Below are positions 2,012 through 59,511 of a DNA stretch of 64,000 bases, one piece after another. The translations under genes were made by a program, and so were the position numbers. The notes under the pieces are model-generated. The model was not told where the DNA came from and ran no database searches. It was given only the letters and a program-made list of their open reading frames with translations. Within the stretch, counting starts at the first letter, position 1, and each line of letters begins with the position of its first letter. This stretch comes from Dokdonia sp. (GTDB taxonomy: Bacteria; Bacteroidota; Bacteroidia; Flavobacteriales; Flavobacteriaceae): the NCBI GenBank assembly GCA_040118945.1, contig JBEDTH010000010.1:10731-74730 (forward strand), written 5' to 3'.

Positions 2012-3112
2012 ATGGATTTTAGCACACTAGGTGACCGCGTTACCAATGCACGATTGTTTAGAGGTTCTGAAGCGAAACCATTTTTGGCTCCAAGGGGTGT
2101 TTTTGTCGCAAAGAATAAACTCTTTGTATCGGATACGGGGCAAAACCGAGTTTTTATTTGGAACAAGATACCTACTTCAGAATTTCAGGAACCCGATGTT
2201 GTTTTAGGACAACTAGAAGTGGCAGATAGTGGTCGCAATTCTGGAGGAGATGTTACGGCAAATACATTACAGTATCCTTCAGGTATTTGGAGCGATGGCG
2301 AACAATTAATCGTTGCTGATGCTTGGAATCATCGCGTACTTATATGGCATACCCTTCCTACATCTAATGGACAGCCTGCAGATGTTGTTTTGGGACAACC
2401 TCATTTTAGAACTAATCTACCCAATGTAAAAGGTATCGGAAATGACCCTACATCTCAAACACTAAATTGGCCTTATGGCTTGTTTTCTGACGGACAAAGC
2501 CTCTGGGTTGCAGATACGGGAAATAGGCGCATTCTTTTCTATAAGACTATTCCGAAAGAAAATTATACTCCTGCTGATGAAGTAATAGGGAAACCTGCAT
2601 TCACGACCCGAGATTATAATAACGATGACCCTATCTGGCCCTATTCAATTAAACTAAATAGCAAAGGTCAAATGGCAGTTGCAGATACGCAGTTTTACCG
2701 CGTGCTTATTTGGAATTCTAAAGAAGATGCACTTTCAAAACCAGCTGATATTATTATTGGGCAAGATAATTTTGATGCGTGTGGGCAAAATCAATTTAGA
2801 CTTGCTCCAGAAGCAAATACGTTAAATTGGACATACGATGCCTGTTTTTACAAGGATGGTATCCTCATTAATGATACAGGTAATAGCCGAATTCTATATT
2901 TTGATACGATACCAGAGGAAAATAACGCTTTCGCGAAAGCGGTTATAGGCAGAGAAAATTTCACAACCAGTAGCGAGTTTAAAGGTAATATGCACGGTAC
3001 GCAAAGTGCAATTTACTGGCCATTCTCAATAACCACAGAAGGAAACACCCTATTTATGGCAGATACAGGTAATCACCGCTTGGTTATTTGCGACTTAAAA
3101 GGTGAGATATAA
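2012..3112 (+). CDS. NHL-repeat beta-propeller protein
   Basis: Internal repeats with NRVFIW / NHRVLIW / NRRILFY / YRVLIW / NSRILYF / NHRLVI blade signatures; starts 4 nt after hypE. Confidence 0.65.
   Translation: MDFSTLGDRVTNARLFRGSEAKPFLAPRGVFVAKNKLFVSDTGQNRVFIWNKIPTSEFQEPDVVLGQLEVADSGRNSGGDVTANTLQYPSGIWSDGEQLIVADAWNHRVLIWHTLPTSNGQPADVVLGQPHFRTNLPNVKGIGNDPTSQTLNWPYGLFSDGQSLWVADTGNRRILFYKTIPKENYTPADEVIGKPAFTTRDYNNDDPIWPYSIKLNSKGQMAVADTQFYRVLIWNSKEDALSKPADIIIGQDNFDACGQNQFRLAPEANTLNWTYDACFYKDGILINDTGNSRILYFDTIPEENNAFAKAVIGRENFTTSSEFKGNMHGTQSAIYWPFSITTEGNTLFMADTGNHRLVICDLKGEI
2927..2940. repeat. Iterated palindrome GCTTTCGCGAAAGC (perfect 14-mer)
   Basis: Inside the NHL gene, read as AFAKA; extends to the 16-bp palindrome CGCTTTCGCGAAAGCG. 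Confidence 0.95.
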
Positions 3113-3781
3113 CCAGTATATCCCAATAACTACGGCAAATAAACCACCCGCAAATCGAATACCTTTGAAAAATATCGGGTCATTTGCTTTTTTAGAGTAG
3201 GAAGCAATGCTTCCAAGTATAAGCGCGTAAACTGTCATAGCTAGTACTGTTCCAATCGCAAAACCAATAATATATTGAATGCCTTCTAATTTAGTATCAA
3301 ATGCTAATACCGGAAGTAATAAGATAAAATGCGCTACTCCAGCAAGTCCGTGAAGAAAACCAATACCTAAAGAGGATAATGTGTTTTGTTTAATTTTCTT
3401 TTTATGGGTATGCGATTCGGCTGATGATGTATACGTGTGAATGTGAGTTTCTCCATCGCTATGCGTATGCGGATGATGATGTTTTTTCTTTTCTTTAAAA
3501 ATGCGATAAAAAGCCCATAGTCCAACCACAATCAAAACTATAGCTACTAATTGTTCACTATATGCAGAAATTGCATCTACCGGAATTACTTCTTTAAAAA
3601 GTAGGAATAGAATTCCAATTAAAAGCATTCCTAATAAATGCCCAATCCCCCATACTAATCCTATTTTCCATCCTTTACGCTGAGAAGAAATAGCTAAAGG
3701 TGTTACTGCGGCTAAATGGTCTGGTCCAGAAATAACGTGAAGTATAGAGGCAAGTATAGCAGAGAATAAAGTTGTAATCAA
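3095..3781 (-). CDS. His-rich-loop metal (likely Ni/Co) transporter-like membrane protein (HupE/UreJ or NicO-like)
   Basis: About six hydrophobic segments, an N-terminal HVISGPDHLAAV motif and a central loop HHHPHTHSDGETHIHTYTSSAESHTH; adjacent to hyp genes. Confidence 0.5.
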   Translation of the reverse strand: MITTLFSAILASILHVISGPDHLAAVTPLAISSQRKGWKIGLVWGIGHLLGMLLIGILFLLFKEVIPVDAISAYSEQLVAIVLIVVGLWAFYRIFKEKKKHHHPHTHSDGETHIHTYTSSAESHTHKKKIKQNTLSSLGIGFLHGLAGVAHFILLLPVLAFDTKLEGIQYIIGFAIGTVLAMTVYALILGSIASYSKKANDPIFFKGIRFAGGLFAVVIGIYWLYLTF

Positions 3782-4709
3782 AATTTCAAATCGGATATTT
3801 TTTAATATTTGGTAAGTTAAAAATTTATTTTAAATATTTTACTCTTCGAGAAGATGTCTCTGGTTTTGGTTTATTTTTAATAGTGTATCCTCTCAGCACA
3901 TTTCCCTAAACTTCGCGAAAAGCTACATTTCAGGAAAAGAGCTTCATTCACAATAATCTTGGACACAATTTCAAAGTAGCTATCATTACTTTCAGTCGCT
4001 ATTAAGCCGAACAAACGAACTACATCTGAATAGAACCCTATCAACTTTGAAATAGAGTCCGCTAATTAATTTCACTTACACCTTTCACTTCACAAAGTTG
4101 TAAAATTCTGCCCGAAACGAACTGCATAACCGTTCGTGCACTCACTTTTATAAGTTCTTATTCCCTCAAAATTTTAGTGTCAGTTACTGAAAAGGTAACA
4201 GCGATGGCGCTATGGGAAGTAAGTAGATATTAAATCATCATCGGCTACTTTCATCTCAATCTTACCTAATAAATAGATAGCAAAACGTATCAAATCCCTG
4301 CTTTTTGAGCTAAAAGAAAAGGAAAACGCTCAAGATATAATAAGTATGCAGATAAATGCCATTGTGGCAACTAATTGACACCAATCTAAACCATATATAA
4401 TTGGCTTAACTATTGACCTAATATGCTCATAATCATTATTAAGTAATATCAATGGTCTCCAGTATTTATTACGAATACTTTAAAAAGTTGATTAGATTTT
4501 TCTTAAAAAATGCAAGGTGTAGTTTAACACCTCTTAGGCTTTTTAGCTTTAGATAGAAAGTACTGCAAACCCGAAATGAAATGAAGGGATTGTATAGCAA
4601 GAGGGTAACACGCTGGCGCGATGTTACGATATTAAGTTTTTTCAAAACACCAGTAAAATCAATGCTTGACAGCGATTGATTGTTTTTTGTTTTAAAAATT
4701 GAAGTGTTG

Positions 4710-4724
4710 TTTTTCACGGAAAAA
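4710..4724 (+). promoter_or_regulatory. Copy 1 of 15-bp direct repeat TTTTTCACGGAAAAA (candidate operator/oriT element)
   Basis: Exact repeat of 4752..4766; each copy is an imperfect hairpin (TTTTTC/GAAAAA arms). Confidence 0.35.
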
Positions 4725-4751
4725 CGCCCACAACCCAATAAAAACAATAAA

Positions 4752-4766
4752 TTTTTCACGGAAAAA
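4752..4766 (+). promoter_or_regulatory. Copy 2 of 15-bp direct repeat TTTTTCACGGAAAAA, abutting the ATG at 4766
   Basis: Exact repeat lying 42 bp downstream of copy 1; its last base is the A of the start codon. Confidence 0.35.
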
Positions 4767-5182
4767 TGGATGAAGGATATGAAAAAGAGCGATTTAAGAG
4801 CCTAAGCATCAAAGCTTCAGTAGCAGCTAAGTTTAATAAATTTTGTAAAGAAATGGCACTTTCAAAATCGATGACCTTATTGGTTATGATTGAGTTTTTT
4901 GAAGAAAACTGTATTTCGCCAACAGAGTCTATGGGGCCAAATATGGAAACCTTAGAAAAGCGAATTTCATTACTCATCAAGAAACGAATGAATGGAATGA
5001 TTGCTATAATGAAAGACATCGAAAAGAACCAAACCAAACCGACAGTAGCAATGCTACAATCACTTTTTGAACAGACTGAACCAAAAAAGAAAGTACGAAT
5101 GGTGGAGAAAAATGACCCTTATCTGCATAAAGACGTTCGTTTTCGCGAAAAGAAATATTTGGATAACAATGATGATGCATAA
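4766..5182 (+). CDS. BfmA/BtgA-like mobilization DNA-binding protein
   Basis: 138 aa. The pattern SIKASVAAKFNKFCKE...LLVMIEFFEENCISP...IKKRMNGMIAIMKDIEKNQTKP resembles small Bacteroidetes Mob accessory proteins as I remember them; not verified by search. Confidence 0.5.
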   Translation: MDEGYEKERFKSLSIKASVAAKFNKFCKEMALSKSMTLLVMIEFFEENCISPTESMGPNMETLEKRISLLIKKRMNGMIAIMKDIEKNQTKPTVAMLQSLFEQTEPKKKVRMVEKNDPYLHKDVRFREKKYLDNNDDA

Positions 5183-5841
5183 TGAAAAGTGTAAACTACA
5201 TTATTCACCTCAATACCGTATTGGAAATATTCAATAACGATAAACGTATTAAACAAGGACATATCACATTATACCTTGCCTTCTTCTATTTATGGAACAA
5301 AAAGTTTTTTAAAGAGACCATGACCATAAATCGGGAGCTCATAATGGAGCACGCAAAGATTAAATCTAAAACGACGTATCATAATCATTTGCGAGATTTA
5401 GATACCTGGGGATATCTTACTTACTATCCATCATATCATCCATCAAGAGGTTCTAAGATTAAGATGACCAGAGCTTGTCCCAAAAGTGGTACAACCTCTA
5501 GTACACTGAAGGTCCAAAATTTGGACAACTGCGTTCCAAAACCTAGCCAAAATTTGGTATCTTCTTATAAACATAAAACAAAAGAAAACTTAAATAAACA
5601 GCCTGTCTTATTTTTTAACGAAAGTGAAGTCATTTTGTTTTTTGAGCAAAATAGTTGGCCAGAGATAGAAGCACTAAAATTTCACGCTTTTATTAAATCG
5701 AAAAAATGGAAAACAGACAATTGGCAAACTATAGCGAGGATTTTTGCTAAAAACGATTTTGAATTAAAAGAACCTAAAATGAGGAGTCCAATTTCTGGCT
5801 ATGTAGAAAAACTTAGAAATGATGGGGATAGGGACTATTGA
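5182..5841 (+). CDS. Hypothetical protein of the mobile element
   Basis: 219-aa ORF whose start overlaps the preceding stop (TAATG); no recognised motif. Confidence 0.5.
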   Translation: MKSVNYIIHLNTVLEIFNNDKRIKQGHITLYLAFFYLWNKKFFKETMTINRELIMEHAKIKSKTTYHNHLRDLDTWGYLTYYPSYHPSRGSKIKMTRACPKSGTTSSTLKVQNLDNCVPKPSQNLVSSYKHKTKENLNKQPVLFFNESEVILFFEQNSWPEIEALKFHAFIKSKKWKTDNWQTIARIFAKNDFELKEPKMRSPISGYVEKLRNDGDRDY

Positions 5842-5858
5842 ATGCTCTTTTGAAAAGC

Positions 5859-7100
5859 CTATTTTATTTGTCTTACTGCTTGGGTTGAAGCCTGCATTTT
5901 AGCCTTGAGTATCTTCATATCTTCGCTCACTTTTCTATCCAAAATTTTGGCGTAATGTTGCGTAGTTCTTAAAGATTTGTGGCCAAGCATTTTGCTTACA
6001 GATTCAATAGGAACACCATTTGATAGTGTTACTGTAGTTGCAAACGTATGTCTCGCCAAGTGAAAAGTTAGGTTCTTTGTTATTTTGCAAAGTATCGCTA
6101 TTTCCTTAATGTAGGCATTCATTTTTTGATTACTTAATACCGGAAGTAGTCTACCTTTATTCGAAACATCAGGATGGTCGTCATACTTCTTCAAAATATC
6201 AATAGCTGTGGGTAATAATGGAATACTGCTTCGCGTATCGGTTTTAGAACGTTTTATTTTAATCCACTTATCACCATCTATACCAATTACGATATCGTTG
6301 CGCGAAAGCTTCTTTACATCGGCATATGCAAGTCCGGTAAAACAAGAAAAGAGAAAGATATCTTTGACTTGGTCCAAACGTTCTGTATGTAATTCCTTTT
6401 CCACCATCTTTTGAATTTCTTCTTCGGTAAGAAATTCTCTCTCAACTATTTTAAGTTTAGCTTTCCAATTTGCAAATGGGTCTTTCTGAATCCAATCGTT
6501 AGCAAAAGCGATACGTATGATTTTTTTGAAATTTGTGACATACTTAATAGCTGTGTTATGCGCGCACTTTCGTTCTGTTTTTAAGTAGTATTCTAAGCCC
6601 GATATAAATTTATGGTCTACATCTTTTACTGGAATATCCTCAAGGTTATATTCTAAATTTATATAATCTGAAACGTGTTTCTTTGCTGTTTTGTAGCGCT
6701 CTATGGTTCCAGGAGCAAATTCTTTCCCTACTAAACGTTCAATCTTATCATTATGATTCTGGAAAATTTCAAGTAGCATCTTATGATGTATTCCTTTGCC
6801 TAAATAAACATTCTTAATAATTTCAGCCGTGACCAGCTCTTGATTCTCAGATAACGTTTCCTGAATCTTGTAGATTTTAACTTTAATAGTGTCCATATAC
6901 TTATTAAGCTCACGAACATCAGTTGTCGTTCCGCGAACCTTTCCAGCCTCAGAGTTCCATCTACTCAATAACACCTTTCGTTTTATGCTCAACTCGCTAC
7001 GCTTACCATTTACCGTTATTCTTAAGTAAATAGGAGCATTACCGTTTTTGTCAATGTCATTACCTCTTGGGTAAAATAGGATTGAAAATGTAGTTTTCAT
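5859..7100 (-). CDS. Tyrosine site-specific integrase (Bacteroidetes phage-integrase family with N-terminal arm-binding domain)
   Basis: C-terminal catalytic signatures HLARHTFAT and GHKSLRTTQHYAK; located next to the 3' end of a tRNA. Confidence 0.9.
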   Translation of the reverse strand: MKTTFSILFYPRGNDIDKNGNAPIYLRITVNGKRSELSIKRKVLLSRWNSEAGKVRGTTTDVRELNKYMDTIKVKIYKIQETLSENQELVTAEIIKNVYLGKGIHHKMLLEIFQNHNDKIERLVGKEFAPGTIERYKTAKKHVSDYINLEYNLEDIPVKDVDHKFISGLEYYLKTERKCAHNTAIKYVTNFKKIIRIAFANDWIQKDPFANWKAKLKIVEREFLTEEEIQKMVEKELHTERLDQVKDIFLFSCFTGLAYADVKKLSRNDIVIGIDGDKWIKIKRSKTDTRSSIPLLPTAIDILKKYDDHPDVSNKGRLLPVLSNQKMNAYIKEIAILCKITKNLTFHLARHTFATTVTLSNGVPIESVSKMLGHKSLRTTQHYAKILDRKVSEDMKILKAKMQASTQAVRQIK

Positions 7101-7101
7101 C

Positions 7102-7236
7102 GGTGCGTGGTTTTTATCGCACTATAAGGTACAAAAAATACAAATGCAAATTACACGTAAACCCCTATACAACAATAGTTAACGACTTATTAGGTGCGTA
7201 TTTTAGTATAAATATTTACGCACCGAATCACGCACC
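7102..7236. repeat. Nested inverted copies of GGTGCGT(G/A) (candidate integrase arm-type sites)
   Basis: GGTGCGTG at 7102..7109 pairs with CACGCACC at 7229..7236. GGTGCGTA at 7193..7200 pairs with TACGCACC at 7217..7224. Confidence 0.3.
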
Positions 7237-7280
7237 TTTTATTTGATATTATATGATTTTAGATGATATTATGAAAAATT

Positions 7281-7315
7281 AAAAAAGCCCATAAACATAG
7301 TGTTTACGGGCTTTT
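7281..7315 (-). terminator. Intrinsic terminator downstream of tRNA-Ser
   Basis: Hairpin GCCCATAAAC/GTTTACGGGC (one mismatch) at 7287..7311, flanked by an A-run and a T-run. Confidence 0.6.
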
Positions 7316-7338
7316 AGCAGAATTTGGTAATTCCTAAG

Positions 7339-7423
7339 CGGAGAAAGAGGGATTCGAACCCCCGGAGGTGTGACCCTCAACAGTTTTCAAGACTGCCGCA
7401 TTCGACCACTCTGCCATTTCTCC
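7339..7423 (-). tRNA. tRNA-Ser (anticodon UGA)
   Basis: The reverse complement folds as a cloverleaf: acceptor GGAGAAA/TTTCTCC, anticodon loop CTTGAAA, long variable arm, T-loop GGTTCGAATCC. CCA is not encoded. Confidence 0.9.
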
Positions 7424-9458: not shown

Positions 9459-10262
9459 TCATTCTAGCATCTCATAGAGGGCCTGCTGGTAGGTGGGATA
9501 ATCACTCAAATTATTATGCCCCCCCTCGGGTATAGTGATCAATTCTTTCTGATCCGAATTAATATGCTCATATAAACGTTTACCATGAGAATAATCTACC
9601 ACACCATCGGCTGTGCCGTGCACAATGGTTATGGGCGCTGTGACCTCATTAATAAAGGAGTAGGTCGGGAAAGGGTACTTGACCAAAGCGTCTACTGGTA
9701 AAAAGGGGAATCTAGATTTGGCCTCATTGGCTATGCTATAAAATGGTGTCTCTAAGATTAAACGTTCACCCTCATTTTTACTGGCCACATAAGTGGCAAA
9801 AGTGGTACCTAAACTACGGCCGTATAATGTCAAAGGGAGCTCTGGATATTGCGCTTTCGCGAAAGCGTACCACTGCAAGGCATCTTGGTATAAGCTTTCT
9901 TGAGACAGGGCACCGCTACTCTTACCAAACTGGCGATAATCCATCACAATAACCGCATAATTCATCGCGACTAAGGGTTGTACAAGCTCTCCCCAACGTG
10001 CCAAATTACCCGCATTACCATGGAAATAAAGAATGACCCCTTTAGGTTGTGGCTGGGTAAAATGTATACCGTGTAATCTAGCTTGCTGGGCTTCTAGCGT
10101 TACCTCTTCAAAGGGGCTCTCAAAGTCAAAACTATAGCTTGTGGGTAAAGGTGAAGGGTGAAAAATTAGATTTTCTTGAAAAAAATAAAGCCCACCACAT
10201 AATATGGCGTAAATATTGGCGAGAACAAAAAGAAGGAGGAGTGGTTTTTTAAGGCGTCGCAT
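9459..10262 (-). CDS. Alpha/beta-fold hydrolase with N-terminal membrane anchor
   Basis: Nucleophile elbow GRSLG, HG oxyanion motif (YFHGNAGN), and C-terminal D...GGH triad residues. Confidence 0.7.
   Translation of the reverse strand: MRRLKKPLLLLFVLANIYAILCGGLYFFQENLIFHPSPLPTSYSFDFESPFEEVTLEAQQARLHGIHFTQPQPKGVILYFHGNAGNLARWGELVQPLVAMNYAVIVMDYRQFGKSSGALSQESLYQDALQWYAFAKAQYPELPLTLYGRSLGTTFATYVASKNEGERLILETPFYSIANEAKSRFPFLPVDALVKYPFPTYSFINEVTAPITIVHGTADGVVDYSHGKRLYEHINSDQKELITIPEGGHNNLSDYPTYQQALYEMLE
9853..9866. repeat. Iterated palindrome GCTTTCGCGAAAGC (perfect 14-mer)
   Basis: Inside the minus-strand hydrolase gene, read as AFAKA; 16-bp version CGC...GCG. Confidence 0.95.
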
Positions 10263-14252: not shown

Positions 14253-15725
14253 TTGGCAGTATCTCTTAGTGTCTTGCTGCTCTTTGCCATCTATGTATAT
14301 GTAGATACTACTGGTTTTTATACCCACATCGAGACGGCTGCCTTATGGGTGCGCGAGTGGTTTGGCACCTTTTACCTTTGGTTAGGTTTGGGCTGTGTGT
14401 TTTTTATATTGGCTATTTCGCTTTCCCCTTTCGGGAAACGTAAATTGGGACCACCCAATGCGGTGTCAGAGTTTAGCAGAGGCGCTTGGATCGCCATGCT
14501 ATACAGTGCCGGTATGGGAGCGGGTATTTTATTGAGAGCCGTGCAAGAACCTGTTTTTATGCAACAGCACCCTCCTATTTCTACTGGAAATCCCGTAGAA
14601 GTTGTGGCCTTAGAATACACCTTTTATCAATGGGGGTTTACCGCTTGGGCATTTTATGGGCTCTTTGCCTTGATTTTGGGATACTACCTATATAACAGCC
14701 AGACGCCTGTGCGCATGAGCGCAACCCTAGGGCAAAATAAGAGTCCCTCGCTATGGACCAAACTAAGTAAAGGAAGTATCGATAGTCTTACCATTGTCAC
14801 AACGGTCTTTGGACTTATAGGAGCCATTGCTTTGGGTACCACCCAAATTAACGGCGGGCTCAATCACCTTTTTGAAACCGATTTTGGGCTGGGCACCACC
14901 ATTGCCCTAACCCTAACTATTTCACTCTTGGCTTTTGTCTCGGTGTGGAGTGGCATGCACAAAGGAATCAAAATTATTTCTACCTGGAATATTTATGTTA
15001 CCCTAGCCATATTGTTATATATTTTCGCGCAAAGCGATGTCTTGTCGGTGTTGAGCAATTTTGTGCAAAGCCTCTATCACTACTTGCTCGATTTTGTACC
15101 CTTGAGTATCGCGACTGCGCCTTATGATCCTGGCAAAGCTTTTTTAACAGATTGGACCTATTACTATTGGGCCTTTTGGCTAGCTTGGGCGCCGTTTACT
15201 GGGGTGTTTATCGCCCGTATTTCAAAAGGAAGAAGTCTAAGAGAATTGCTTATTGGAGTTTTGCTGATCCCTTCTTTGGGTACCTTTTTTTGGTTTTCGG
15301 TTTTTGGAACTTCAGCTTTTGATGTCATTAAAGATTGGGGGAGTTATAATAGTGAATTTGGCAATGTTTTCTCTTCCATTTTTGTCTTTTTTGAACAGTA
15401 CCCAGGTGCAGGAATACTCAATGTGATCACCCTGCTGCTGCTTATTAGTTTTTTAGTCACCTCTGTAGATTCGGCTGTATTTGTACTGAGCATGTTTACC
15501 GATAAGGGCAAGGTAGATCCCAGCAAAAAACATCGCTTAATTTGGTCATTGTGTTTGGCGATATTTTCGGTGGCTATAATCCTTCTAGGCAATGCCCGCG
15601 CCGATGTAGATGTATTGGTGGCCCTCCAAAAATTACTCATTATCACCTCTCTTCCTTTTGCGCTATTTATTATCCTAATGGTACTTTTGTTTTTGAGACA
15701 TCTTTCGCGAAAGCCAAAACAGTAA
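14253..15725 (+). CDS. BCCT-family (betaine/carnitine/choline) transporter
   Basis: Signature WTYYYWAFWLAWAPFTGVFIARISKGRSLRE and about 12 TM segments. TTG start as given by the ORF track. Confidence 0.85.
   Translation: MAVSLSVLLLFAIYVYVDTTGFYTHIETAALWVREWFGTFYLWLGLGCVFFILAISLSPFGKRKLGPPNAVSEFSRGAWIAMLYSAGMGAGILLRAVQEPVFMQQHPPISTGNPVEVVALEYTFYQWGFTAWAFYGLFALILGYYLYNSQTPVRMSATLGQNKSPSLWTKLSKGSIDSLTIVTTVFGLIGAIALGTTQINGGLNHLFETDFGLGTTIALTLTISLLAFVSVWSGMHKGIKIISTWNIYVTLAILLYIFAQSDVLSVLSNFVQSLYHYLLDFVPLSIATAPYDPGKAFLTDWTYYYWAFWLAWAPFTGVFIARISKGRSLRELLIGVLLIPSLGTFFWFSVFGTSAFDVIKDWGSYNSEFGNVFSSIFVFFEQYPGAGILNVITLLLLISFLVTSVDSAVFVLSMFTDKGKVDPSKKHRLIWSLCLAIFSVAIILLGNARADVDVLVALQKLLIITSLPFALFIILMVLLFLRHLSRKPKQ
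15702..15713. repeat. Iterated palindrome core CTTTCGCGAAAG (perfect 12-mer)
   Basis: Inside the BCCT gene in a different frame, read as LSRK. Confidence 0.95.
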
Positions 15726-19833: not shown

Positions 19834-20958
19834 ATGGATTTACAACAAAGAATTAACGCTTTTGTTCAACTAGGACGCTTTTTGAGTCAGTTTACTAGAG
19901 AAGACATTGTACAAAAAGATGATGTTGCACATAACGACCTCTTTTTTGACGGTATGCTTCACCAAATAAAAATTGCTGGCGAAAACAATGGCTGGTTTAC
20001 CAAAGAAAATGTGCTTTTCGCTTTAGAAGGTTGGGCTCAAACACTCACCCAAAAGGGGCTTGAGCTGTGGTTGGCTCCTTATGAGCAAGATTTGGCTTTA
20101 GCCCAAAAAAACAATACCACAACTACGGCAAATACAGCAACAAGCTCAAAAACGGTGGCTGTCATCATGGCGGGAAACATCCCCTTGGTGGGATTTCATG
20201 ACTTTCTATCGGTCTTAATGAGTGGACATCGCTTTGTGGGTAAACTATCCAGCAATGACAAACACCTACTGCCCTTTCTGGCGATGTATCTTGAAAAGGT
20301 AGCTCCATCGTTTAAAGGTCGAATCACCTTTACCGATGATAAATTACTACACTATGATGCTGTTATTGCTACAGGAAGTGACAATACAGCGCGCTATTTT
20401 GAATATTATTTTGGCGATAAGCCAAATATTATCAGAAAAAACAGAAACTCGGTGGCTGTCCTTACTGGGGATGAAACCGAGACAGAACTCGAGGCCCTCA
20501 CTGAAGATATTTTCAGGTACTATGGATTAGGGTGTCGCAATGTCTCCAAGCTATTTGTACCTAAAGGCTATAATTTTGATGCGTTTTTTAATGCCGTATA
20601 CGCCTGGAGGGCTATCATTCATCAAAATAAATACGCCAATAATTACGATTATAACAAGGCGGTTTATCTCATGAGTTTATTCGAGCTCAAAGAAAACGGC
20701 TTTTTAATGCTCAAAGAAGAGACGAGTTACGGCTCTCCTATTGCAACCTTGTTTTATGAATATTACGATGAGCTAACTCAACTCTCACAAAGGCTGGATA
20801 AGGATCAACAATACATTCAATGTGTGGTAACCAATGAGGAGACAGCCACTTCGCTTTCGCGAAAACCGTCATTTGTAGCCTATGGGCAAACACAGAAACC
20901 AGCATTGAATGATTATGCCGATGGTGTGGATACAATTGCGTTTTTGTTAAGAATTTAG
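19834..20958 (+). CDS. LuxC-like acyl-CoA reductase
   Basis: GLGCRNVSKLFVP motif, plus the gene order ferredoxin / acyl-CoA reductase / serC / serA, which I recall as conserved in Flavobacteriaceae. Confidence 0.55.
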   Translation: MDLQQRINAFVQLGRFLSQFTREDIVQKDDVAHNDLFFDGMLHQIKIAGENNGWFTKENVLFALEGWAQTLTQKGLELWLAPYEQDLALAQKNNTTTTANTATSSKTVAVIMAGNIPLVGFHDFLSVLMSGHRFVGKLSSNDKHLLPFLAMYLEKVAPSFKGRITFTDDKLLHYDAVIATGSDNTARYFEYYFGDKPNIIRKNRNSVAVLTGDETETELEALTEDIFRYYGLGCRNVSKLFVPKGYNFDAFFNAVYAWRAIIHQNKYANNYDYNKAVYLMSLFELKENGFLMLKEETSYGSPIATLFYEYYDELTQLSQRLDKDQQYIQCVVTNEETATSLSRKPSFVAYGQTQKPALNDYADGVDTIAFLLRI

Positions 20959-45113: not shown

Positions 45114-45468
45114 AATCTATATATGTCACAATGTCGCATTTTAAAAAGACGCAGTGTGACTTGTTTTATTTGGATCTATTCGTTTTCAGCAGTATATCGC
45201 CTTCTGATAAAGAGCGCTGCTACTATTACTATATATAGTCAATTCTTGTGCCAATTACTTTCACTAAAGGTTTTGCCTTTAACGCTTTCGCGAAAACAAG
45301 ACCCGACCCAGCTGCTACCACAATCACTTGTAACTCGATTTACAATACAGGTATGACACTACCAAAAAGTGAGCTATCTTTAGAAAAATTAGTCCTTTCT
45401 GAGAAAATTTTCACGAAAGTGTAACAGTTCAAAAAAAAGTACATCTTTAGTATAGAATCAACCAATTC

Positions 45469-50213: not shown

Positions 50214-50876
50214 CTACGAAAGCAAGTTGTGCTCCATAGCAAATAAAATTGCACTTATTCTATTGTTGACACCTAGTTTTTTATACAATTCAGTTCTTCG
50301 GTTGTCTATGGTGCTGGGGCTTAAATTCATGCGTAACGCAATTTCTTTTGAATTTAAATCGGTGCCACAGATATACCTAAGAAATTCTAATTCCGAATCT
50401 TTAAAATACAAGTCTTCTTCTTCTTCTAAAGTGTCGCTGTACGTCATCTCTTTTAATCGCTTAAACGTTTGCTTATCGACACGCTCGCTGTACACATACC
50501 GGCCTTGGGCAGCAGTGGCAATAGCCTTTTCTAGCTTTTGTGGCGCCACATCTTTGAGAAGATATCCTTTGCAGCCATAACGTATCATTTGAGAAATGGT
50601 TTGGTCATCATCTTCCATAGTAATGGCCAACACATTTATTTGAGGCAAATGCTCACTTAACCATTGCATGGTGCCAATGCCATCAAGTCCTGGCATTCTT
50701 ACGTCCAATAAAACGACATCTGGCAAGCTGTTTTGCTTTTTTATGTATTCAATAAAATCTAAGCCATTCTGGGCCACATAGGTGACATAGGTATTTTCAA
50801 ATGATGCGATAAGAGTTTTTAATGCTTTCGCGAAAAGCGTATGATCATCTACCAATATGATGTTGCGGGGGGTCAT
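50214..50876 (-). CDS. LuxR/NarL-family response regulator
   Basis: Receiver domain (ILVDDH, LLDVRMPGLDG) plus a C-terminal LuxR HTH (LSPSTIDNRRTELYKKLGV). Confidence 0.9.
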   Translation of the reverse strand: MTPRNIILVDDHTLFAKALKTLIASFENTYVTYVAQNGLDFIEYIKKQNSLPDVVLLDVRMPGLDGIGTMQWLSEHLPQINVLAITMEDDDQTISQMIRYGCKGYLLKDVAPQKLEKAIATAAQGRYVYSERVDKQTFKRLKEMTYSDTLEEEEDLYFKDSELEFLRYICGTDLNSKEIALRMNLSPSTIDNRRTELYKKLGVNNRISAILFAMEHNLLS

Positions 50877-53209: not shown

Positions 53210-54061
53210 TAACTCCCAATACACTTTACTGCCAGCCTGCAGTTGCCCCATTAAATTCATACTTTCGGGTGTCAATTGCAAAACCCTAGGATAGCCTCCT
53301 GTGGTCTGACAATCATATAACAAGGCGATCAAACTACCATCTGGAGTACATTGTATCGTACCAGGAATGACTGGGGCTGTATGCATTTCTGGCATTTGAT
53401 GCAGCAGTTTCTGCTCAAATTGTAAAGCCATCCTGTTCCAATGATTAGACACTATGGTAGGCCGCAACAGCGCTTGTCTTTGATCTGAAGACAACCACTC
53501 ATATTCTGGACCTTTATAAACCTTAAGACAAATGGCTTCTGGCCTGTCTGCACTTATATTTGATACTATACTTCTTAATTTGGCTCCCTTTATGGCGCCA
53601 TATTGCGACCTACCTATGGGCAAAAAATCTTTCTTTTCGAGTTTTTCGACGGTCAATGGAGCATACATACTTCTGCTTCCTAGCACCTTTTCTGTCATAA
53701 TGCCACCTGCAACAGCGAGATAAACTCTGCTGTCTTTGTTTACAGCGCCAATATGTAAACGATCTCCCGCTTTCGCGAAAGCTACCGCTGAATGCCTTAC
53801 TGTTTTTCCAGCACAATCGGCAGTAACACCCCCTCCAGTTATTACAAAATGAGTATCCTTTTCAAATGCTACTACAGGCCCTTTAAGCGTGCATTCGATA
53901 ACAGCAGCATCTGGGCGGTTATTTAATAGCCCATTGGCCATAGCCATAGCGCTTCTATCCATCACACCGCTTTGAGGTATACCTAAGTGGGCATATCCAA
54001 AACGACCAGCGTCCTGTACACTAGTCCAAAATCCTGGCTGTATAACGATCAGACCATTCAC
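53201..54061 (-). CDS. pxpC: 5-oxoprolinase subunit C (KipA / allophanate hydrolase subunit 2 family)
   Basis: Family-typical GxQDxGR start (TSVQDAGRFGYAHLGIPQSG) and GGYP motif; last gene of the pxpA-B-C order. Confidence 0.85.
   Translation of the reverse strand: MNGLIVIQPGFWTSVQDAGRFGYAHLGIPQSGVMDRSAMAMANGLLNNRPDAAVIECTLKGPVVAFEKDTHFVITGGGVTADCAGKTVRHSAVAFAKAGDRLHIGAVNKDSRVYLAVAGGIMTEKVLGSRSMYAPLTVEKLEKKDFLPIGRSQYGAIKGAKLRSIVSNISADRPEAICLKVYKGPEYEWLSSDQRQALLRPTIVSNHWNRMALQFEQKLLHQMPEMHTAPVIPGTIQCTPDGSLIALLYDCQTTGGYPRVLQLTPESMNLMGQLQAGSKVYWELLS
53769..53782. repeat. Iterated palindrome GCTTTCGCGAAAGC (perfect 14-mer)
   Basis: Inside minus-strand pxpC, read as AFAKA. Confidence 0.95.
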
Positions 54062-54768
54062 GATTGGGTGGTTTTTAAGTCATAGGCAGCCGTAGCCACT
54101 TTTTGGGCAATTGTGTCGTATTCGCTAGGAGAAACTGGATAAAATTGAATTTGATCTCCTGGGCTAAAAGGTGACGGATTGTCTGCCTTGGGGTCAAATA
54201 ATCGTATAGGCGTATTCCCAATAATGTGCCACCCTCCAGGGCTTTCTTGGGGGTATATTCCGGTTTGACTTCCCCCTATGGCTACAGCACCTTTGGGTAT
54301 ATTAAAGGCTGGTTTTTTCTTTCTTGGAAAATGTAAACGAGGATCTAGACCTGTTAAATATGGGAATCCAGGTAAAAATCCTAAAAAGGCAATGGTATAT
54401 CTTGGTGCGCAATGCCAGTCTATAATAGTTCGTGGCGCTACTTGTTTTGCTTTCGCGAAAGCATTCAAATCCAAACCAAATTCGAGATCATAACAAACTG
54501 GGATATGATGTATCAACGCTTTATTGGCTAACGGTACTATCTCTTGATCTAGTAGCTGTTTGAGCTGGTCGAGTACCGCTGGCGAAGGGGCTACTTTTAC
54601 AAGAATTTGATAATAGGTATGAACGATCTCCACCTTAAAATGCGACACTAGCCGATTTTTTATGGCAAGCAAGTAGGGTAAAAATTGCGAATGCTCTCGT
54701 GCTGCCCACCTTATAAGGATGGCTTGATTACCTAAAGGAAAAATGTCATAGTTGTCGTATGGTGTCAT
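54058..54768 (-). CDS. pxpB: 5-oxoprolinase subunit B (KipI / allophanate hydrolase subunit 1 family)
   Basis: FLGFLPGFPYL and GGSQTGIYP motifs; 4-nt overlaps with both neighbours. Confidence 0.85.
   Translation of the reverse strand: MTPYDNYDIFPLGNQAILIRWAAREHSQFLPYLLAIKNRLVSHFKVEIVHTYYQILVKVAPSPAVLDQLKQLLDQEIVPLANKALIHHIPVCYDLEFGLDLNAFAKAKQVAPRTIIDWHCAPRYTIAFLGFLPGFPYLTGLDPRLHFPRKKKPAFNIPKGAVAIGGSQTGIYPQESPGGWHIIGNTPIRLFDPKADNPSPFSPGDQIQFYPVSPSEYDTIAQKVATAAYDLKTTQS
54449..54462. repeat. Iterated palindrome GCTTTCGCGAAAGC (perfect 14-mer)
   Basis: Inside minus-strand pxpB, read as AFAKA; 16-bp version TGC...GCA. Confidence 0.95.
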
Positions 54769-57863: not shown

Positions 57864-57972
57864 ACCAAAGGTCTTTACGTATTAGGCCACGGAGGAACTT
57901 ACTTCTATATCGAGTAATTGGCACTTAAATATAACACAATATACTGATTATCAATACTTTTAAAGTTTAAAA

Positions 57973-59511
57973 TCAACCCAACCACCCCTCCCTATCCAGA
58001 CTTCTATACTGGATAGCCTCGCTAATGTGCTGGTCTTTTATTTGATCCTTACCATCAAGATCGGCTATGGTTCGGGCTACTTTTAAAATTCGGTCATAGG
58101 CCCTAGCAGACAAGTGCAAGCGTTCCATCGCCGCTTTTAAGAGCTGTAATGAGCTAGCGTCGAGACTGCAATATTTTCGGATTTGCTTTACATTCATTTG
58201 TGCATTGTAGTGGGTATTTTTGCTTTCGCGAAAGCGTTCACTTTGATAGGCTCTCGCTGCTGTTACCCGTTGCCGTATAGCCAAACTAGACTCTGACTTT
58301 GTCAACTCACTCAATTTATCAAAGGGAACAGGGGTCACCTCTATGTGTATGTCAATACGATCGAGTAAGGGCCCACTAATCTTGCCCAAATACCGTTGCA
58401 TTTCTTGAGGCGAACTACTCACAGCAGCCGTCGGGTCATTAAAGTAGCCTCCAGGGCTGGGATTCATACTAGCTACCAACATAAAGCTGCTGGGATAGGT
58501 TACTGTAAATCGCGCTCTGGATATGGTAACCTCTCGATCTTCTAAGGGTTGTCGCATCACCTCGAGCACCGACCTTTTAAATTCTGGCAATTCATCGAGA
58601 AATAAAACGCCATTGTGCGACAACGATATTTCTCCTGGTTGCGGGTAAGACCCACCACCTACTAAGGCTACATCTGATATGGTGTGATGTGGTGCTCTAA
58701 AAGGGCGTTGACTCATCAATCCCTCATGCGCTTTGAGACGCCCTACCACACTGTGAATTTTTGTAGTTTCTAAGGCTTCTCTTAATGACATAGGTGGCAA
58801 TATGCTAGGCAAGCGTTTGCTAAGCATCGTCTTGCCGCTTCCAGGAGGCCCTATAAGAATGATGTTATGACCGCCGGCAGCTGCTATTTCCATACATCTT
58901 TTGATAGATTCTTGTCCTTTGACATCGGCAAAGTCAAATTCGGGCTGTTGTAGCTCTTTGTAAAACTCCTGCTGTATATCTACCGTGGTTTCTGGCAAAG
59001 GAGTGCCCTTACTAAAAAAAGCGATAACCTCACTAATCGTAGACACCCCGTATACGGCTATGCCATCTACTATGGCCGCTTCTTTTGCATTTTGTATCGG
59101 TAAGATAAATCCTTTGAAATTTTCTTCTTTCGCTTTGATCGCTATGGGTAAGGCGCCTTTTATAGGCTGAAGACTACCGTCTAATGACAACTCTCCCATG
59201 ATAATGTATGACCCAATGTCAATACCTTCGATCTGGCCTGAAGCAATAAGGATACCTAACGCCAGTGGCAAGTCATAGGCCGATCCTTCTTTACGCATAT
59301 CGGCAGGTGACATATTGAGAATGATCTTTTTGCCTGGAATTTTAAATCCGTGATTTTGTAAAGCCGCTGCAATTCTGAAATTACTTTCTTTGATGGCACT
59401 ATCGGGTAAGCCTACCAGATGATAGCCTATTCCTTTATCTACATTAACCTCTACGGTAATTGTGGTGGCGTCTACTCCAATGACAGCGCTTCCAAAAACT
59501 TTGGTAATCAT
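57973..59511 (-). CDS. YifB/ComM-family Mg-chelatase-like AAA+ ATPase
   Basis: Lon-protease-like N-domain, Walker A GPPGSGKTM, Walker B VLFLDELPEF, and a C-terminal ChlI-like region. Confidence 0.9.
   Translation of the reverse strand: MITKVFGSAVIGVDATTITVEVNVDKGIGYHLVGLPDSAIKESNFRIAAALQNHGFKIPGKKIILNMSPADMRKEGSAYDLPLALGILIASGQIEGIDIGSYIIMGELSLDGSLQPIKGALPIAIKAKEENFKGFILPIQNAKEAAIVDGIAVYGVSTISEVIAFFSKGTPLPETTVDIQQEFYKELQQPEFDFADVKGQESIKRCMEIAAAGGHNIILIGPPGSGKTMLSKRLPSILPPMSLREALETTKIHSVVGRLKAHEGLMSQRPFRAPHHTISDVALVGGGSYPQPGEISLSHNGVLFLDELPEFKRSVLEVMRQPLEDREVTISRARFTVTYPSSFMLVASMNPSPGGYFNDPTAAVSSSPQEMQRYLGKISGPLLDRIDIHIEVTPVPFDKLSELTKSESSLAIRQRVTAARAYQSERFRESKNTHYNAQMNVKQIRKYCSLDASSLQLLKAAMERLHLSARAYDRILKVARTIADLDGKDQIKDQHISEAIQYRSLDREGWLG
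58222..58235. repeat. Iterated palindrome GCTTTCGCGAAAGC (perfect 14-mer)
   Basis: Inside the minus-strand yifB/comM-like gene in the third frame, read as RFRES. Confidence 0.95.

What the first reader, a model, noticed from the sequence alone, without database searches (positions are those of the whole stretch)
2927..58235. Hyper-iterated 12-14 bp palindrome (G)CTTTCGCGAAAG(C) scattered through genes and intergenic DNA
CTTTCGCGAAAG occurs perfectly 11 times, starting at 2928, 9854, 15702, 25141, 29853, 33430, 38440, 39458, 53770, 54450 and 58223. Nine of these are the full 14-mer GCTTTCGCGAAAGC, and several extend to 16 bp. Near-copies lie at 3911 (CTTCGCGAAAAGC), 5140 (TTTTCGCGAAAA), 20851 and 45284 (GCTTTCGCGAAAAC) and 50824 (GCTTTCGCGAAAAGC). 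Half-sites lie at 6297 and 15017. For a uniform random 64-kb sequence a given 12-mer is expected about 64000/4^12 = 0.004 times, so this is an excess of thousands-fold. It is not a protein motif. Nine perfect copies are coding and use all three frames (AFAKA seven times, LSRK once, RFRES once) on both gene strands, in unrelated proteins (NHL, hydrolase, BCCT, ThrB, GcvT, PxpB, PxpC, ComM-like). Two more are intergenic. It is also not a transposon or MITE, because it has no flanking conserved sequence and the host reading frames stay intact. The behaviour parallels HIP1 (GCGATCGC) of cyanobacteria. I do not recognise this sequence as a named element. The core contains TCGCGA (the NruI-type site) and a central CGCG. 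That makes a link to a methyltransferase with mismatch-repair drive, a DNA-uptake or recombination signal, or a nucleoid protein site plausible but unproven. The bias toward the AFAKA phase suggests selection filters which insertions or conversions are tolerated. The three copies inside the integrase element are all degenerate.
Basis: seen in the sequence. Interest (0 to 1): 0.8.

Follow-up and report, generated by a model that had tools for sequence, protein, structure and literature searches.

The report
Hyper-iterated 14-bp palindrome of the Dokdonia clade
A 14-16 bp DNA palindrome (GCTTTCGCGAAAGC) is written about every 4-5 kb through the genes and spacers of one group of marine flavobacteria and some of their phages, and it is kept letter-perfect while the surrounding DNA diverges, so it is a genome-wide DNA signal like cyanobacterial HIP1 or DNA uptake sequences, and I found no published description of it.

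Summary
The window holds 11 exact CTTTCGCGAAAG and 9 exact GCTTTCGCGAAAGC, against 0.002-0.02 expected from shuffles and Markov orders 0-4.

It is not local. Every Dokdonia-clade locus carries it (about 250 per Mb). Leeuwenhoekiella, Ulvibacter, Flavobacterium and Gramella loci have about 3 per Mb.

- **DNA-level signal:** it is read in three frames. 59 of 61 AFAKA peptides use exactly the palindrome's codons. Its codons stay fixed across about 20 species whose synonymous sites are saturated.
- **Origin:** copies arise by point substitutions from proto-sites, without indels and with amino-acid changes, so it is not an insertion element.
- **Recognition unit:** only the full palindrome is enriched, not TCGCGA or half-sites. 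It carries about 27-30 bits where about 12 would suffice.
- **Distribution:** sites are about 4 times denser in intergenic DNA, whatever the spacer type.
- **Spacing:** sites are spaced more evenly than chance. In the window no gap exceeds 5.85 kb, and pairs closer than 1 kb are rare.
- **Phages:** phage contigs with portal and capsid genes carry it too.

My best reading is a clade-specific self-DNA signal recognised as duplex DNA by a symmetric protein. It most resembles DNA uptake sequences in behaviour and HIP1 in form. The function is unproven. The literature search found no description of it.

The parts
2927..2940 (.). Perfect 14-mer (16-mer CGCTTTCGCGAAAGCG at 2926-2941), in the NHL-repeat gene 2012-3112(+), read as AFAKA
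9853..9866 (.). Perfect 14-mer (extends to the 16-mer), in the alpha/beta-hydrolase gene 9459-10262(-), read as AFAKA
15701..15714 (.). Perfect 12-mer (TCTTTCGCGAAAGC), at the 3' end of the BCCT transporter gene 14253-15725(+), read as LSRK
20853..20866 (.). One-off copy GCTTTCGCGAAAAC, in ORF 19834-20958(+), read as LSRK.
25140..25153 (.). Perfect 14-mer in a small ORF ending at 25268(+), read as AFAKA. Conserved at the orthologous position in L057 and seven Dokdonia-clade loci (L006, L007, L008, L012, L016, L020 among them).
29852..29865 (.). Perfect 12-mer (CCTTTCGCGAAAGC), intergenic, in the divergent spacer between the YjeF-type gene (-) and thrA (+)
33429..33442 (.). Perfect 14-mer in thrB 32628-33551(+), read as AFAKA. 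The palindrome core is kept in 19 of 23 related loci that cover the site, while synonymous sites are saturated. Outgroups have an unrelated peptide at this position and no indel.
38439..38452 (.). Perfect 14-mer (16-mer) in gcvT 37419-38531(+), read as AFAKA. Present in L057, L012, L016 and L022, with the 12-mer in L017. Relatives have proto-sites such as AYAKT or DLAKV.
39457..39470 (.). Perfect 14-mer, intergenic, 28 nt downstream of ORF 38671-39429(+)
45284..45297 (.). One-off copy GCTTTCGCGAAAAC, intergenic, between lon (-) and ORF 45469(+)
50824..50838 (.). Near-copy GCTTTCGCGAAAAGC (one extra A), at the 5' end of the response-regulator gene 50214-50876(-)
53769..53782 (.). Perfect 14-mer in the CT_A_B (PxpC-type) gene 53201-54061(-), read as AFAKA
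54449..54462 (.). Perfect 14-mer in the CT_C_D (PxpB-type) gene 54058-54768(-), read as AFAKA
58222..58235 (.). Perfect 14-mer in the ComM/Mg-chelatase-like gene 57973-59511(-), read as RFRES
5140..5151 (.). Degenerate copy TTTTCGCGAAAA (it contains the 10-mer core) inside the integrase island. It counts as one of the 15 evenly spaced core sites.
3782..7423 (.). Low-GC island with a tyrosine integrase (5859-7100, -) next to tRNA-Ser (7338-7423, -). It carries only degenerate copies (3911, 5140, 6296).

Best explanation
**Shown.** GCTTTCGCGAAAGC is a DNA-level signal specific to the Dokdonia clade of Flavobacteriaceae, which includes the organism of this window. Its consensus extends, fading outward, to TTACGCTTTCGCGAAAGCGTAA. 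New copies arise by ordinary point substitutions that push pre-existing similar sequences to the perfect palindrome, changing amino acids where the protein tolerates it. Once perfect, a copy is kept letter for letter while neighbouring synonymous sites saturate. Abundance is limited by coding constraint: sites are about 4 times denser between genes, and AFAKA is the preferred frame. Sites are spaced more evenly than chance, roughly one per 2-6 kb.

**Inferred, step 1.** Only the whole palindrome is enriched, the exact letters are conserved rather than just pairing potential, and the 14-mer hairpin is weak. The signal is therefore read as duplex DNA by a symmetric, probably dimeric, sequence-specific protein.

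**Inferred, step 2 (my commitment).** It works like a DNA uptake sequence. A clade-specific protein of the DNA uptake or recombination route prefers fragments that carry the palindrome. Alleles that match better are then transmitted preferentially, by molecular drive with or without selection. This would produce a motif far sharper than recognition requires, even spacing on the scale of the DNA fragments handled, and poverty of the motif in newly acquired DNA.
For: **Excess and clade specificity**
- Excess of at least 1000-fold in the window.
- Clade loci have 250 12-mers per Mb against 3 per Mb in outgroups.
- 70 of 80 metagenome hits have the clade's low GC content.

**DNA level, not protein level**
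- The motif is read in three frames.
- 59 of 61 AFAKA peptides are encoded by the palindrome's codons.
- Motif Ala codons are fixed in 20 of 21 and 19 of 19 sequences. None of 67 other conserved Ala columns has a single codon.
- Orthologous pairs with 5-20% flank divergence keep the 14-mer perfect in 153 of 157 cases. With 20-30% divergence, 304 of 431 stay perfect, where about 1.5% would be expected.

**Origin**
- Graded series from proto-sites, with no indels: GFHEAV to RFRESV in thrA and LSQKL to LSRKL in thrC.

**Recognition unit**
- Isolated half-sites occur 6 times, about chance.
- TCGCGA outside the motif occurs 5 times against 6-9 expected.
- One-off variants inside the 14-mer number about 10 against about 200 perfect copies.
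- The motif holds 26.6-30 bits against 12 bits needed for its frequency.
- The hairpin of the 14-mer is only -2 kcal/mol. Flank complementarity is only weakly above the marginal expectation.

**Behaviour like uptake sequences**
- 37% of 117 sites in independent metagenome contigs are outside long ORFs. Density is about 4 times higher in intergenic DNA, with no preference for divergent, tandem or convergent spacers.
- Reading-frame bias is 45: 18: 11.
- Spacing of the 15 core sites in the window has CV 0.43 (P=0.0005) and a largest gap of 5848 bp (0 of 20,000 simulations). CV is below 1 in all 13 clade loci tested.
- The hazard of meeting the next site is 0.02-0.06 per kb below 1 kb and 0.12-0.29 per kb at 1-5 kb in the metagenome loci.
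- The island carries only degenerate copies.

**Literature**
- USS and DUS share even spacing, under-representation in coding DNA, frame bias, peptide enrichment, absence from new DNA and origin by point mutation under molecular drive (PMC2817400, PMC7811141).
- Riemerella columbina, a bacterium described in that paper as a member of the Flavobacteriaceae, is naturally competent and prefers its own DNA (PMC7965970).
Against: - No uptake, competence or binding experiment exists for this clade. The recognising protein is unidentified.
- Known uptake sequences are not palindromes (PMC2817400).
- The density of 0.17-0.25 per kb is 3-5 times lower than the roughly 1 per kb of USS.
- From my own knowledge, the known DUS receptor is a type IV pilin, and Flavobacteriia generally lack type IV pili. 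I did not test this.
- Phage contigs with portal, capsid and terminase genes carry the motif at near-host density with 4-5 kb spacing. That is more easily explained by a function inside the cell, unless these phages are long-resident temperate phages (some are Mu-like).
- A perfect 14-22 bp palindrome is also the classical form of an operator for a dimeric chromosome-binding protein.
- The spacing statistics rest on one 64-kb window plus 20-kb and shorter loci, many of them orthologous.
Confidence: 0.35

Rival explanations
1. HIP1-like, methylation-linked element. An orphan or R-M methyltransferase acts on the central TCGCGA or CGCG. A repair bias (VSP-like or mismatch-repair strand marking), or selection for methylated marks, then creates and maintains the sites.
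For: - The motif is a perfect palindrome with a type-II-like core, found in coding and non-coding DNA and conserved beyond codon usage, as for HIP1 (PMC4390886, PMC5861425).
- The only two one-off variants seen between phage contigs that are 99% identical are both C-to-T transitions at the same symmetric CpG cytosine, TTTC*GCG. That is the signature expected of 5-methylcytosine deamination, but there are only two events.
- Even spacing would suit a strand-discrimination mark, as Elhai proposed for HIP1 (PMC4390886).
Against: - Conservation covers 14-16 bp and 27-30 bits. From my own knowledge this is well beyond the 4-8 bp that methyltransferases read.
- TCGCGA outside the motif is neither enriched nor avoided, 5 observed against 6-9 expected. 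HIP1, by contrast, is essentially the union of its two methyltransferase sites.
- One-off variants are very rare, whereas they are common for HIP1 (PMC4390886).
- No methyltransferase was found among the 20 window ORFs scanned against Pfam or in the Pfam calls for thr-locus genes. The rest of the window and the rest of the genome were not examined.
Confidence: 0.2
2. Loading or anchoring sites for a clade-specific dimeric chromosome protein (a nucleoid-associated, Noc/SlmA/MatP-like or ParB/KorB-like clamp loader). The protein organises or marks the chromosome at roughly 4-5 kb intervals. Phages copy the sites.
For: - The motif is a 14-22 bp perfect palindrome whose information fades outward, and half-sites alone are not enriched. 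This is the typical form of an operator for an HTH dimer.
- Sites lie inside genes, as NBS, SBS and matS sites do (my own knowledge).
- The window has no gap above 5.85 kb, and sites repel each other at short range.
- Phage structural-gene regions carry the motif with similar spacing.
Against: - The information content is about 2.4 times what the site frequency requires. From my own knowledge, sets of binding sites under selection for binding alone usually match the two.
- Known systems of this type have tens of sites per genome and are conserved over wide taxa (my own knowledge). Here there are hundreds of sites and the motif is confined to one clade.
- The half-site spacing differs by 2 bp from parS and NBS (my own comparison).
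- No candidate protein was identified.
Confidence: 0.2
3. Chi-like protection or recombination signal. A palindromic site would attenuate a RecBCD/AddAB-type nuclease from either direction. It would mark DNA as self, and phages would acquire it to escape degradation.
For: - One site per 4-5 kb with a bounded largest gap. From my own knowledge this density is like Chi in E. coli.
- The motif is clade-specific.
- It is present at near-host density in phage contigs.
Against: From my own knowledge, known Chi sites are 5-8 nt, asymmetric, read on single-stranded DNA and skewed towards one strand. A strictly conserved 14-16 bp palindrome does not fit that recognition mode. I could not test the idea directly.
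Confidence: 0.08
4. Operator of a global transcription factor, or an RNA or ssDNA hairpin element (terminator, attenuator or REP-like).
For: - 37% of sites are intergenic, and some lie 20-40 nt from start codons.
- The extended 22-mer would fold at -7 to -8 kcal/mol.
Against: - 63-80% of sites are inside genes, on both strands and in all frames.
- Site density is the same in divergent, tandem and convergent spacers.
- The 38 genes downstream of intergenic sites have unrelated functions and include no recurrent regulator.
- The 14-mer hairpin is only -2 kcal/mol, and the stem letters are fixed rather than covarying.
- Rfam gives no match other than the tRNA.
- The apparent bias of window copies towards gene 3' ends is not seen in 58 independent complete ORFs.
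Confidence: 0.03
5. Miniature mobile element, insertion footprint or ordinary repeat family.
For: The copy number is high and the copies are sharply identical.
Against: - There is no conserved sequence beyond about 22 bp.
- At four orthologous coding sites, almost all of the 40-55 genomes that lack the site align without a gap. The few gapped rows are placed differently in each and belong to distant outgroups.
- Graded proto-sites differ by single substitutions.
- Sites stay at fixed orthologous positions across species.
Confidence: 0.02

Closest known systems
HIP1, the Highly Iterated Palindrome GCGATCGC of cyanobacteria, and its variants (PMC4390886, PMC5861425)
   Same: - Both are short perfect palindromes, hyper-abundant across a whole clade.
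- Both occur in coding and non-coding DNA and are conserved beyond codon usage.
- Both have palindromic extensions that differ between lineages, and a non-random, quasi-regular distribution.
- The function of both is still unproven.
   Different: - The sequence and the phylum differ.
- This motif is 14-16 bp rather than 8 bp.
- It is less dense (170-250 per Mb against 300-2700 per Mb) but far more over-represented (at least 1000-fold against 15-300-fold).
- One-off variants are rare here.
- The embedded restriction-type hexamer is not itself enriched.
- No link to a methyltransferase has been shown.
DNA uptake sequences: USS of Pasteurellaceae and DUS of Neisseriaceae (PMC2817400, PMC7811141)
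   Same: - Both are clade-specific 'dialects' present in hundreds to thousands of copies.
- Both are spaced more evenly than random.
- Both are under-represented in coding DNA relative to intergenic DNA.
- Both show strong reading-frame bias and enrich the encoded peptides.
- Both originate by point mutation and persist at orthologous positions.
- Both are poor in newly acquired DNA.
- Both carry about twice the information that their frequency requires.
   Different: - USS and DUS are asymmetric, though they are often found in inverted pairs. This motif is a strict palindrome.
- The density here is 3-5 times lower.
- No competence or uptake bias is known for Dokdonia.
- No receptor is known.
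Palindromic chromosomal sites bound by HTH dimers: parS/ParB, NBS/Noc, SBS/SlmA, matS/MatP and the KorB operator (from my own knowledge)
   Same: These are 12-16 bp perfect or near-perfect palindromes that lie inside genes and are read by dimeric proteins. The arms share a TTTC...GAAA element with parS and NBS.
   Different: - Those systems have one to about 100 sites per genome, often confined to one chromosome region, and are conserved across wide taxa.
- This motif is inferred to have several hundred sites per genome, lies about every 4-5 kb, and is confined to one clade.
- The distance from half-site to dyad is 1 bp shorter per arm than in parS or NBS.
REP/BIME, Correia, RPE and other small palindromic repeat elements (from my own knowledge)
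   Same: They are abundant and palindromic.
   Different: Those elements are 20-150 nt, imperfect, usually extragenic or inserted as units, and tied to transposases (RAYT). This motif is 14 bp, is created by substitution, and lies mostly inside genes.

Membership tests
HIP1 / cyanobacterial HIPs | Short perfect palindrome, hyper-abundant genome-wide in coding and non-coding DNA | tested here: met
   The window has 11 copies against 0.002-0.02 expected. Clade loci have 250 per Mb. Copies lie in coding and intergenic DNA.
HIP1 / cyanobacterial HIPs | Sequence GCGATCGC or a derivative, in cyanobacteria | tested here: not met
   The sequence is GCTTTCGCGAAAGC and the hosts are Flavobacteriaceae of the Dokdonia clade.
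HIP1 / cyanobacterial HIPs | Conservation at orthologous sites beyond what codon usage explains | tested here: met
HIP1 / cyanobacterial HIPs | Co-occurrence with methyltransferases that recognise internal sub-sites, so that the motif is the union of their sites | tested here: inconclusive
   No genome-wide search for methyltransferases was possible. The internal hexamer TCGCGA is not enriched outside the motif, 5 observed against 6-9 expected. That argues against a hexamer-level driver.
DNA uptake sequences (USS/DUS) | Competent cells preferentially take up DNA that carries the motif | not testable with these tools
   This needs an experiment. The only indirect support is that Riemerella columbina prefers its own DNA (PMC7965970).
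DNA uptake sequences (USS/DUS) | Spacing more even than random | tested here: met
   In the window CV is 0.43 (P=0.0005) and the largest gap is 5848 bp (P<5e-5). The hazard of meeting the next site rises with distance in independent metagenome loci.
DNA uptake sequences (USS/DUS) | Under-represented in coding relative to intergenic DNA, with reading-frame bias and enrichment of the encoded peptides | tested here: met
   Density is about 4 times higher in intergenic DNA. Frames are 45: 18: 11. AFAKA occurs 61 times in the clade against once in the outgroups.
DNA uptake sequences (USS/DUS) | Asymmetric motif present in both orientations | tested here: not met
   The motif is a strict palindrome.
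DNA uptake sequences (USS/DUS) | Scarce in recently acquired DNA | tested here: inconclusive
   The 3.6-kb integrase island has only degenerate copies, but only about one perfect copy would be expected there. Phage contigs selected for having one copy carry further copies at 84 per Mb, against 118 per Mb for host contigs ascertained the same way.
REP / MITE-type repeat elements | A unit with conserved flanks that is inserted, so that presence or absence shows as an indel; mainly extragenic | tested here: not met
   No conserved flanks. Orthologue alignments are ungapped in almost all genomes that lack the site. 63-80% of copies are inside genes.
parS / NBS / SBS / matS-type sites | 12-16 bp palindrome read by a dimer; only the full site matters | tested here: met
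   Half-sites are at chance frequency. The information profile is symmetric.
parS / NBS / SBS / matS-type sites | Tens of sites per genome, confined to a chromosome region, with information content matched to site frequency | tested here: not met
   Density is 170-250 per Mb, and no gap exceeds 6 kb across the 64-kb window. The motif holds 27-30 bits against 12 bits required.
Chi sites | 5-8 nt asymmetric motif skewed towards one strand | tested here: not met
   The motif is a 14-16 bp palindrome, so it cannot be strand-oriented.
Transcription-factor regulon operator | Sites concentrated upstream of a functionally coherent set of genes | tested here: not met
   Site density is equal in divergent, tandem and convergent spacers. 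The downstream genes are heterogeneous.

The most novel reading that the evidence does not exclude
The palindrome is the recognition site of an undescribed clade-specific system in Bacteroidota that handles DNA in segments of about 4-5 kb. It could be the first DNA uptake or self-recognition sequence outside Proteobacteria, palindromic and read by a dimeric receptor, which would imply routine natural transformation in abundant marine flavobacteria. Or it could be an evenly spaced loading or protection site for a chromosome-wide protein, which the clade's phages have copied.
Probability: 0.45. Interest if true: 0.85.

Novelty: new variant of a known kind. Interest (0 to 1): 0.72.

Why it matters
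Hyper-iterated genomic signals are known from very few lineages: HIP1 in cyanobacteria, and USS and DUS in two proteobacterial families. The function of HIP1 is still debated after 30 years.

A second, independent palindromic case has several advantages for study.

- Dokdonia is a cultivable marine genus with many sequenced species, and phages that carry the motif are available as contigs.
- The motif is sharply defined at 14-16 bp, so the protein that reads it should be easy to fish out with the 22-mer.
- It would allow a test of whether such motifs are driven by biased DNA uptake or recombination, or by chromosome organisation.
- If it is an uptake signal, it would point to natural transformation as a major route of gene flow in marine Flavobacteriaceae.

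Practically, the motif is a strong taxonomic and host-assignment marker. It flags Dokdonia-clade contigs and candidate phages in metagenomes. Adding it to constructs might improve genetic tools, as reported for HIP1 in Synechococcus (bioRxiv 10.1101/2024.09.10.611283).

Tried and rejected
1. **Bias towards gene 3' ends.** Eight of 12 coding core sites in the window lie in the last 30% of their gene. In 58 complete ORFs from independent metagenome contigs the relative positions are spread out, with no 3' bias. Rejected.
2. **Hairpin selection.** Flank positions 1-4 are complementary only slightly more often than their marginal frequencies predict (0.40 against 0.31 and similar), and there is no excess at positions 5-8. 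The 14-mer hairpin is -2 kcal/mol. There is no real covariation, and the letters themselves are fixed.
3. **Promoter, terminator or regulon role.** Site density does not depend on spacer type. Downstream genes are heterogeneous.
4. **Insertion origin.** Orthologue alignments at four sites show no consistent indel.
5. **Enrichment of the half-site or the hexamer.** Both are at chance level.
6. **Known RNA family.** Rfam finds only one tRNA in the window.
7. **Methyltransferase in the window.** None among the 20 window ORFs scanned against Pfam, or in the Pfam calls for thr-locus genes.
8. **Literature.** No paper contains the 14-mer or the 10-mer core in a relevant context. Searches for Dokdonia with palindromes, and for Dokdonia with competence, methylome or restriction-modification terms, returned nothing relevant. 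TCGCGA methylation in a marine survey was reported only for MGIIA archaea. The k-mers proposed as uptake sequences in Riemerella are only A-rich words.
9. **Sequencing or assembly artefact.** Excluded, because the motif sits in frame at conserved orthologous positions in isolate genomes and MAGs from many projects.
10. **Candidate recognising protein.** I could not identify one, and I had no access to whole genomes.

Full report
**1. The observation**

CTTTCGCGAAAG occurs 11 times at exactly the coordinates given. Dinucleotide-preserving shuffles expect 0.02 copies. GCTTTCGCGAAAGC occurs 9 times exactly and 14 times with up to 2 mismatches, against 0.2 expected. Markov models of order 0-4, trained with or without the motif masked, expect 0.002-0.011 copies of the 12-mer.

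Words derived from the motif are the most frequent 10- to 14-mers in the window. The distribution is bimodal: copies are perfect or nearly so, with almost nothing in between.

Two small corrections apply. The copy given as 20851 starts at 20853. The 'half-site' at 15017 is a near-copy with one inserted base.

**2. Where the window comes from and how far the motif reaches**

The window belongs to a marine Flavobacteriaceae MAG. An identical ThrB is encoded in GCA_040118635.1 and on a TARA contig. I fetched thrB neighbourhoods from 60 species genomes.

- Every Dokdonia locus, plus the closest MAG (L057, ThrB 85% identical) and L022, carries 3-8 copies per 20 kb.
- Leeuwenhoekiella, Ulvibacter, Cochleicola, Jejudonia, Flavobacterium and Gramella loci carry 0-1.
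- Pooled, clade loci have 250 12-mers per Mb and outgroups have 3 per Mb.

The consensus extends beyond the 14-mer, fading outward, to (TTA)CGCTTTCGCGAAAGCG(TAA).

**3. It is a DNA signal, not a protein or codon effect**

- In 74 coding sites from independent metagenome contigs the three frames are used 45 (AFAKA), 18 (RFRES) and 11 (LSRK) times.
- Of 61 AFAKA peptides in clade loci, 59 use exactly GCT TTC GCG AAA GCN. Outgroups have a single AFAKA in 237,000 aa of open frames.
- Synonymous sites are saturated in thrB and thrA across 21 genomes. Conserved-residue columns use 3.2 codons on average, and none of 67 conserved Ala columns has a single codon. The motif's Ala codons are GCT in 20 of 21 and GCG in 19 of 19.
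- Among orthologous pairs whose flanks differ by 5-20%, 153 of 157 keep a perfect 14-mer. With 20-30% flank divergence, 304 of 431 are still perfect, against about 1.5% expected. The rest mostly differ at 4-7 positions, which means the site is absent.

**4. How copies arise**

At four orthologous coding sites (thrB, gcvT, thrA, thrC), almost all of the 40-55 genomes that lack the site align without a gap. The few gapped rows are placed differently in each and belong to distant outgroups. So copies are not insertions.

Graded series are visible.

- In thrC, the outgroup CTTTCGCAGAAA (LSQK) and one-off forms (GCTTTCGCGCAAGC, GCTTTCGCGGAAGC) lead to the perfect LSRK copy.
- In thrA, GFHEAV passes through AFRASV and GFRESV to RFRESV, with amino-acid replacements.
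- In thrB, an unrelated loop sequence (SKGxxNA) was replaced by AFAKADI.

Sites are then held at fixed positions, with presence or absence differing between species. One pattern hints at compensatory turnover, though it is only an anecdote: L012, L016 and L017 lack the thrA-536 site but have a site at thrA-76.

**5. What is recognised**

- Isolated GCTTTCG half-sites occur 6 times, which is chance level.
- TCGCGA outside the motif occurs 5 times against 6-9 expected.
- Single-mismatch variants inside the 14-mer are about 20 times rarer than perfect copies. Most deviation is at the outermost 16-mer position. The metagenome part of that sample was selected for perfect 16-mers, so this ratio is only indicative.
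- The motif carries 26.6 bits over its 14 core positions and about 30 bits with flanks. Its frequency requires about 12 bits.
- The 14-mer hairpin is weak at -2 kcal/mol. Flanks show almost no covariation.

I infer recognition of duplex DNA by a symmetric protein. I also infer a process that rewards perfection beyond what discrimination needs. By my estimate from their lengths and copy numbers, USS, DUS and HIP1 carry a similar roughly twofold excess of information.

**6. Distribution**

In 154 sites from independent contigs, 97 lie in ORFs. Site density is about 0.6-0.75 per kb in intergenic DNA and 0.17 per kb in coding DNA. Tandem, divergent and convergent spacers are used in proportion to their total length. 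The 38 genes next to intergenic sites are functionally unrelated. There is no general bias in position within genes.

Spacing is regular.

- The 15 core sites (TTTCGCGAAA) of the window have CV 0.43 (P=0.0005). No gap exceeds 5848 bp, a result reached in 0 of 20,000 simulations.
- The 11 perfect 12-mers alone are not significantly regular (P=0.2). This suggests that near-perfect copies count as sites too.
- All 13 clade loci tested have CV below 1.
- In the metagenome loci, the hazard of meeting the next site is 0.02-0.06 per kb within 1 kb and 0.12-0.29 per kb at 1-5 kb.
- Selection against deletions between close repeats might explain the short-range repulsion. It would not explain the bounded largest gap.

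**7. Phages and the island**

Only 42 stretches of the viral-contig collection hold the 16-mer. The low-GC ones usually hold 2-3 core sites, 4-6 kb apart. They encode portal, major head, terminase, HNH, baseplate and Mu-like proteins. Ascertained the same way, they carry 84 further sites per Mb against 118 per Mb for host contigs.

Two one-off variants between near-identical phage contigs are both C-to-T changes at the same symmetric CpG.

The tRNA-Ser/integrase island of the window (3782-7423) has only degenerate copies. Two TTCGCGAA-containing near-copies in 3.6 kb are themselves improbable by chance. They may reflect amelioration in progress or a donor with a related motif.

**8. Interpretation**

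The shown facts define a clade-wide DNA-level signal of the HIP/USS/DUS class. In form it is closest to HIP1, being a palindrome. [quoted passage not shown] Self-preferring natural transformation has been reported in Riemerella columbina, which that paper places in the Flavobacteriaceae (PMC7965970).

I therefore commit, at about 0.35, to an uptake- or recombination-type self signal maintained by biased transmission.

- The main rivals are a methylation-linked HIP1-like mechanism (0.2) and a chromosome-organising dimeric protein (0.2). The first is weakened by the 14-16 bp extent and the unenriched hexamer. The second is weakened by the information excess, the copy number and the clade restriction.
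- A Chi-like role gets 0.08.
- Regulon, hairpin and mobile-element readings are essentially excluded.
- The phage copies are the strongest point against a pure uptake-drive model.

**9. Novelty**

No paper in the searchable library contains the sequence or describes an iterated palindrome in Dokdonia or Bacteroidetes. I rate it a new variant of a known kind: a new phylum, a new sequence, and a motif that is longer and sharper than HIP1 and, unlike USS and DUS, palindromic.

Noticed in passing
L042, L052, L045, L047, L040 and L055 (thr loci of Ulvibacter, Cochleicola, Jejudonia and related MAGs): A different odd-length palindrome, CTTCSGAAG (extended forms include TTCTTCSGAAGAA and GCTTCGGAAAG), occurs 5-10 times per 20 kb, about 13-17 times an order-3 Markov expectation. 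This is much weaker than the Dokdonia motif but recurs in six loci. Neighbouring lineages may have their own iterated palindromes with TTC...GAA arms. A codon or peptide effect such as SEE is not excluded.
   Followed up: partly
L039 (uncultured MAG, ThrB 54% identical), e.g. 8559, 10155, 12079: This outgroup has one perfect GCTTTCGCGAAAGC at the same thrC position as Dokdonia. It also has two copies of CCTTTCGGCGAAAGC (the same arms with one extra central base), one degenerate copy, and four copies of GCTTTCGCCAAA. This may be a variant dialect or decayed sites. Leeuwenhoekiella sp. A16 (L029) and L061 each have one perfect copy.
   Followed up: partly
window 3782-7423: A small low-GC island lies at tRNA-Ser (7338-7423, -). 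It holds a tyrosine integrase (5859-7100, -) and two ORFs without Pfam matches (4766-5182 and 5182-5841). A BLUF blue-light sensor gene (7696-8109) lies just beyond the tRNA.
   Followed up: partly
window 37-2008: HypD and a HypE-like (AIR synthase-related) hydrogenase maturation gene lie at the left edge of the window. This implies a [NiFe]-hydrogenase cluster, which I would not have expected in a marine flavobacterium of this group.
   Followed up: no
L053 14673-16554 (Bacteroidetes MAG, thr locus flank): A CRISPR-like array of about 23 units with an 80-bp period. The repeat of about 47-50 nt reads GTTGTGAGTTCCTTTCAAATTTTTGTAGATTTATCGAGTACAATTACAAC.
   Followed up: partly
L078, L080, L090, L092 and L094 (viral contigs): Near-identical phage contigs (99-99.7%) differ at the motif only by C-to-T or G-to-A changes at the same symmetric CpG (GCTTTTGCGAAAGC and GCTTTCGCAAAAGC). 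This may be a trace of cytosine methylation and deamination at TTTC*GCG. There are only two events and their direction is unknown.
   Followed up: partly
L055 (record titled 'uncultured Alteromonas sp.'): The thr locus of this MAG contig looks flavobacterial: ThrB is 49% identical to the window's, and the CTTCGGAA-type motif of the Ulvibacter group is present. The taxonomic label may be wrong or the bin may be chimeric.
   Followed up: no
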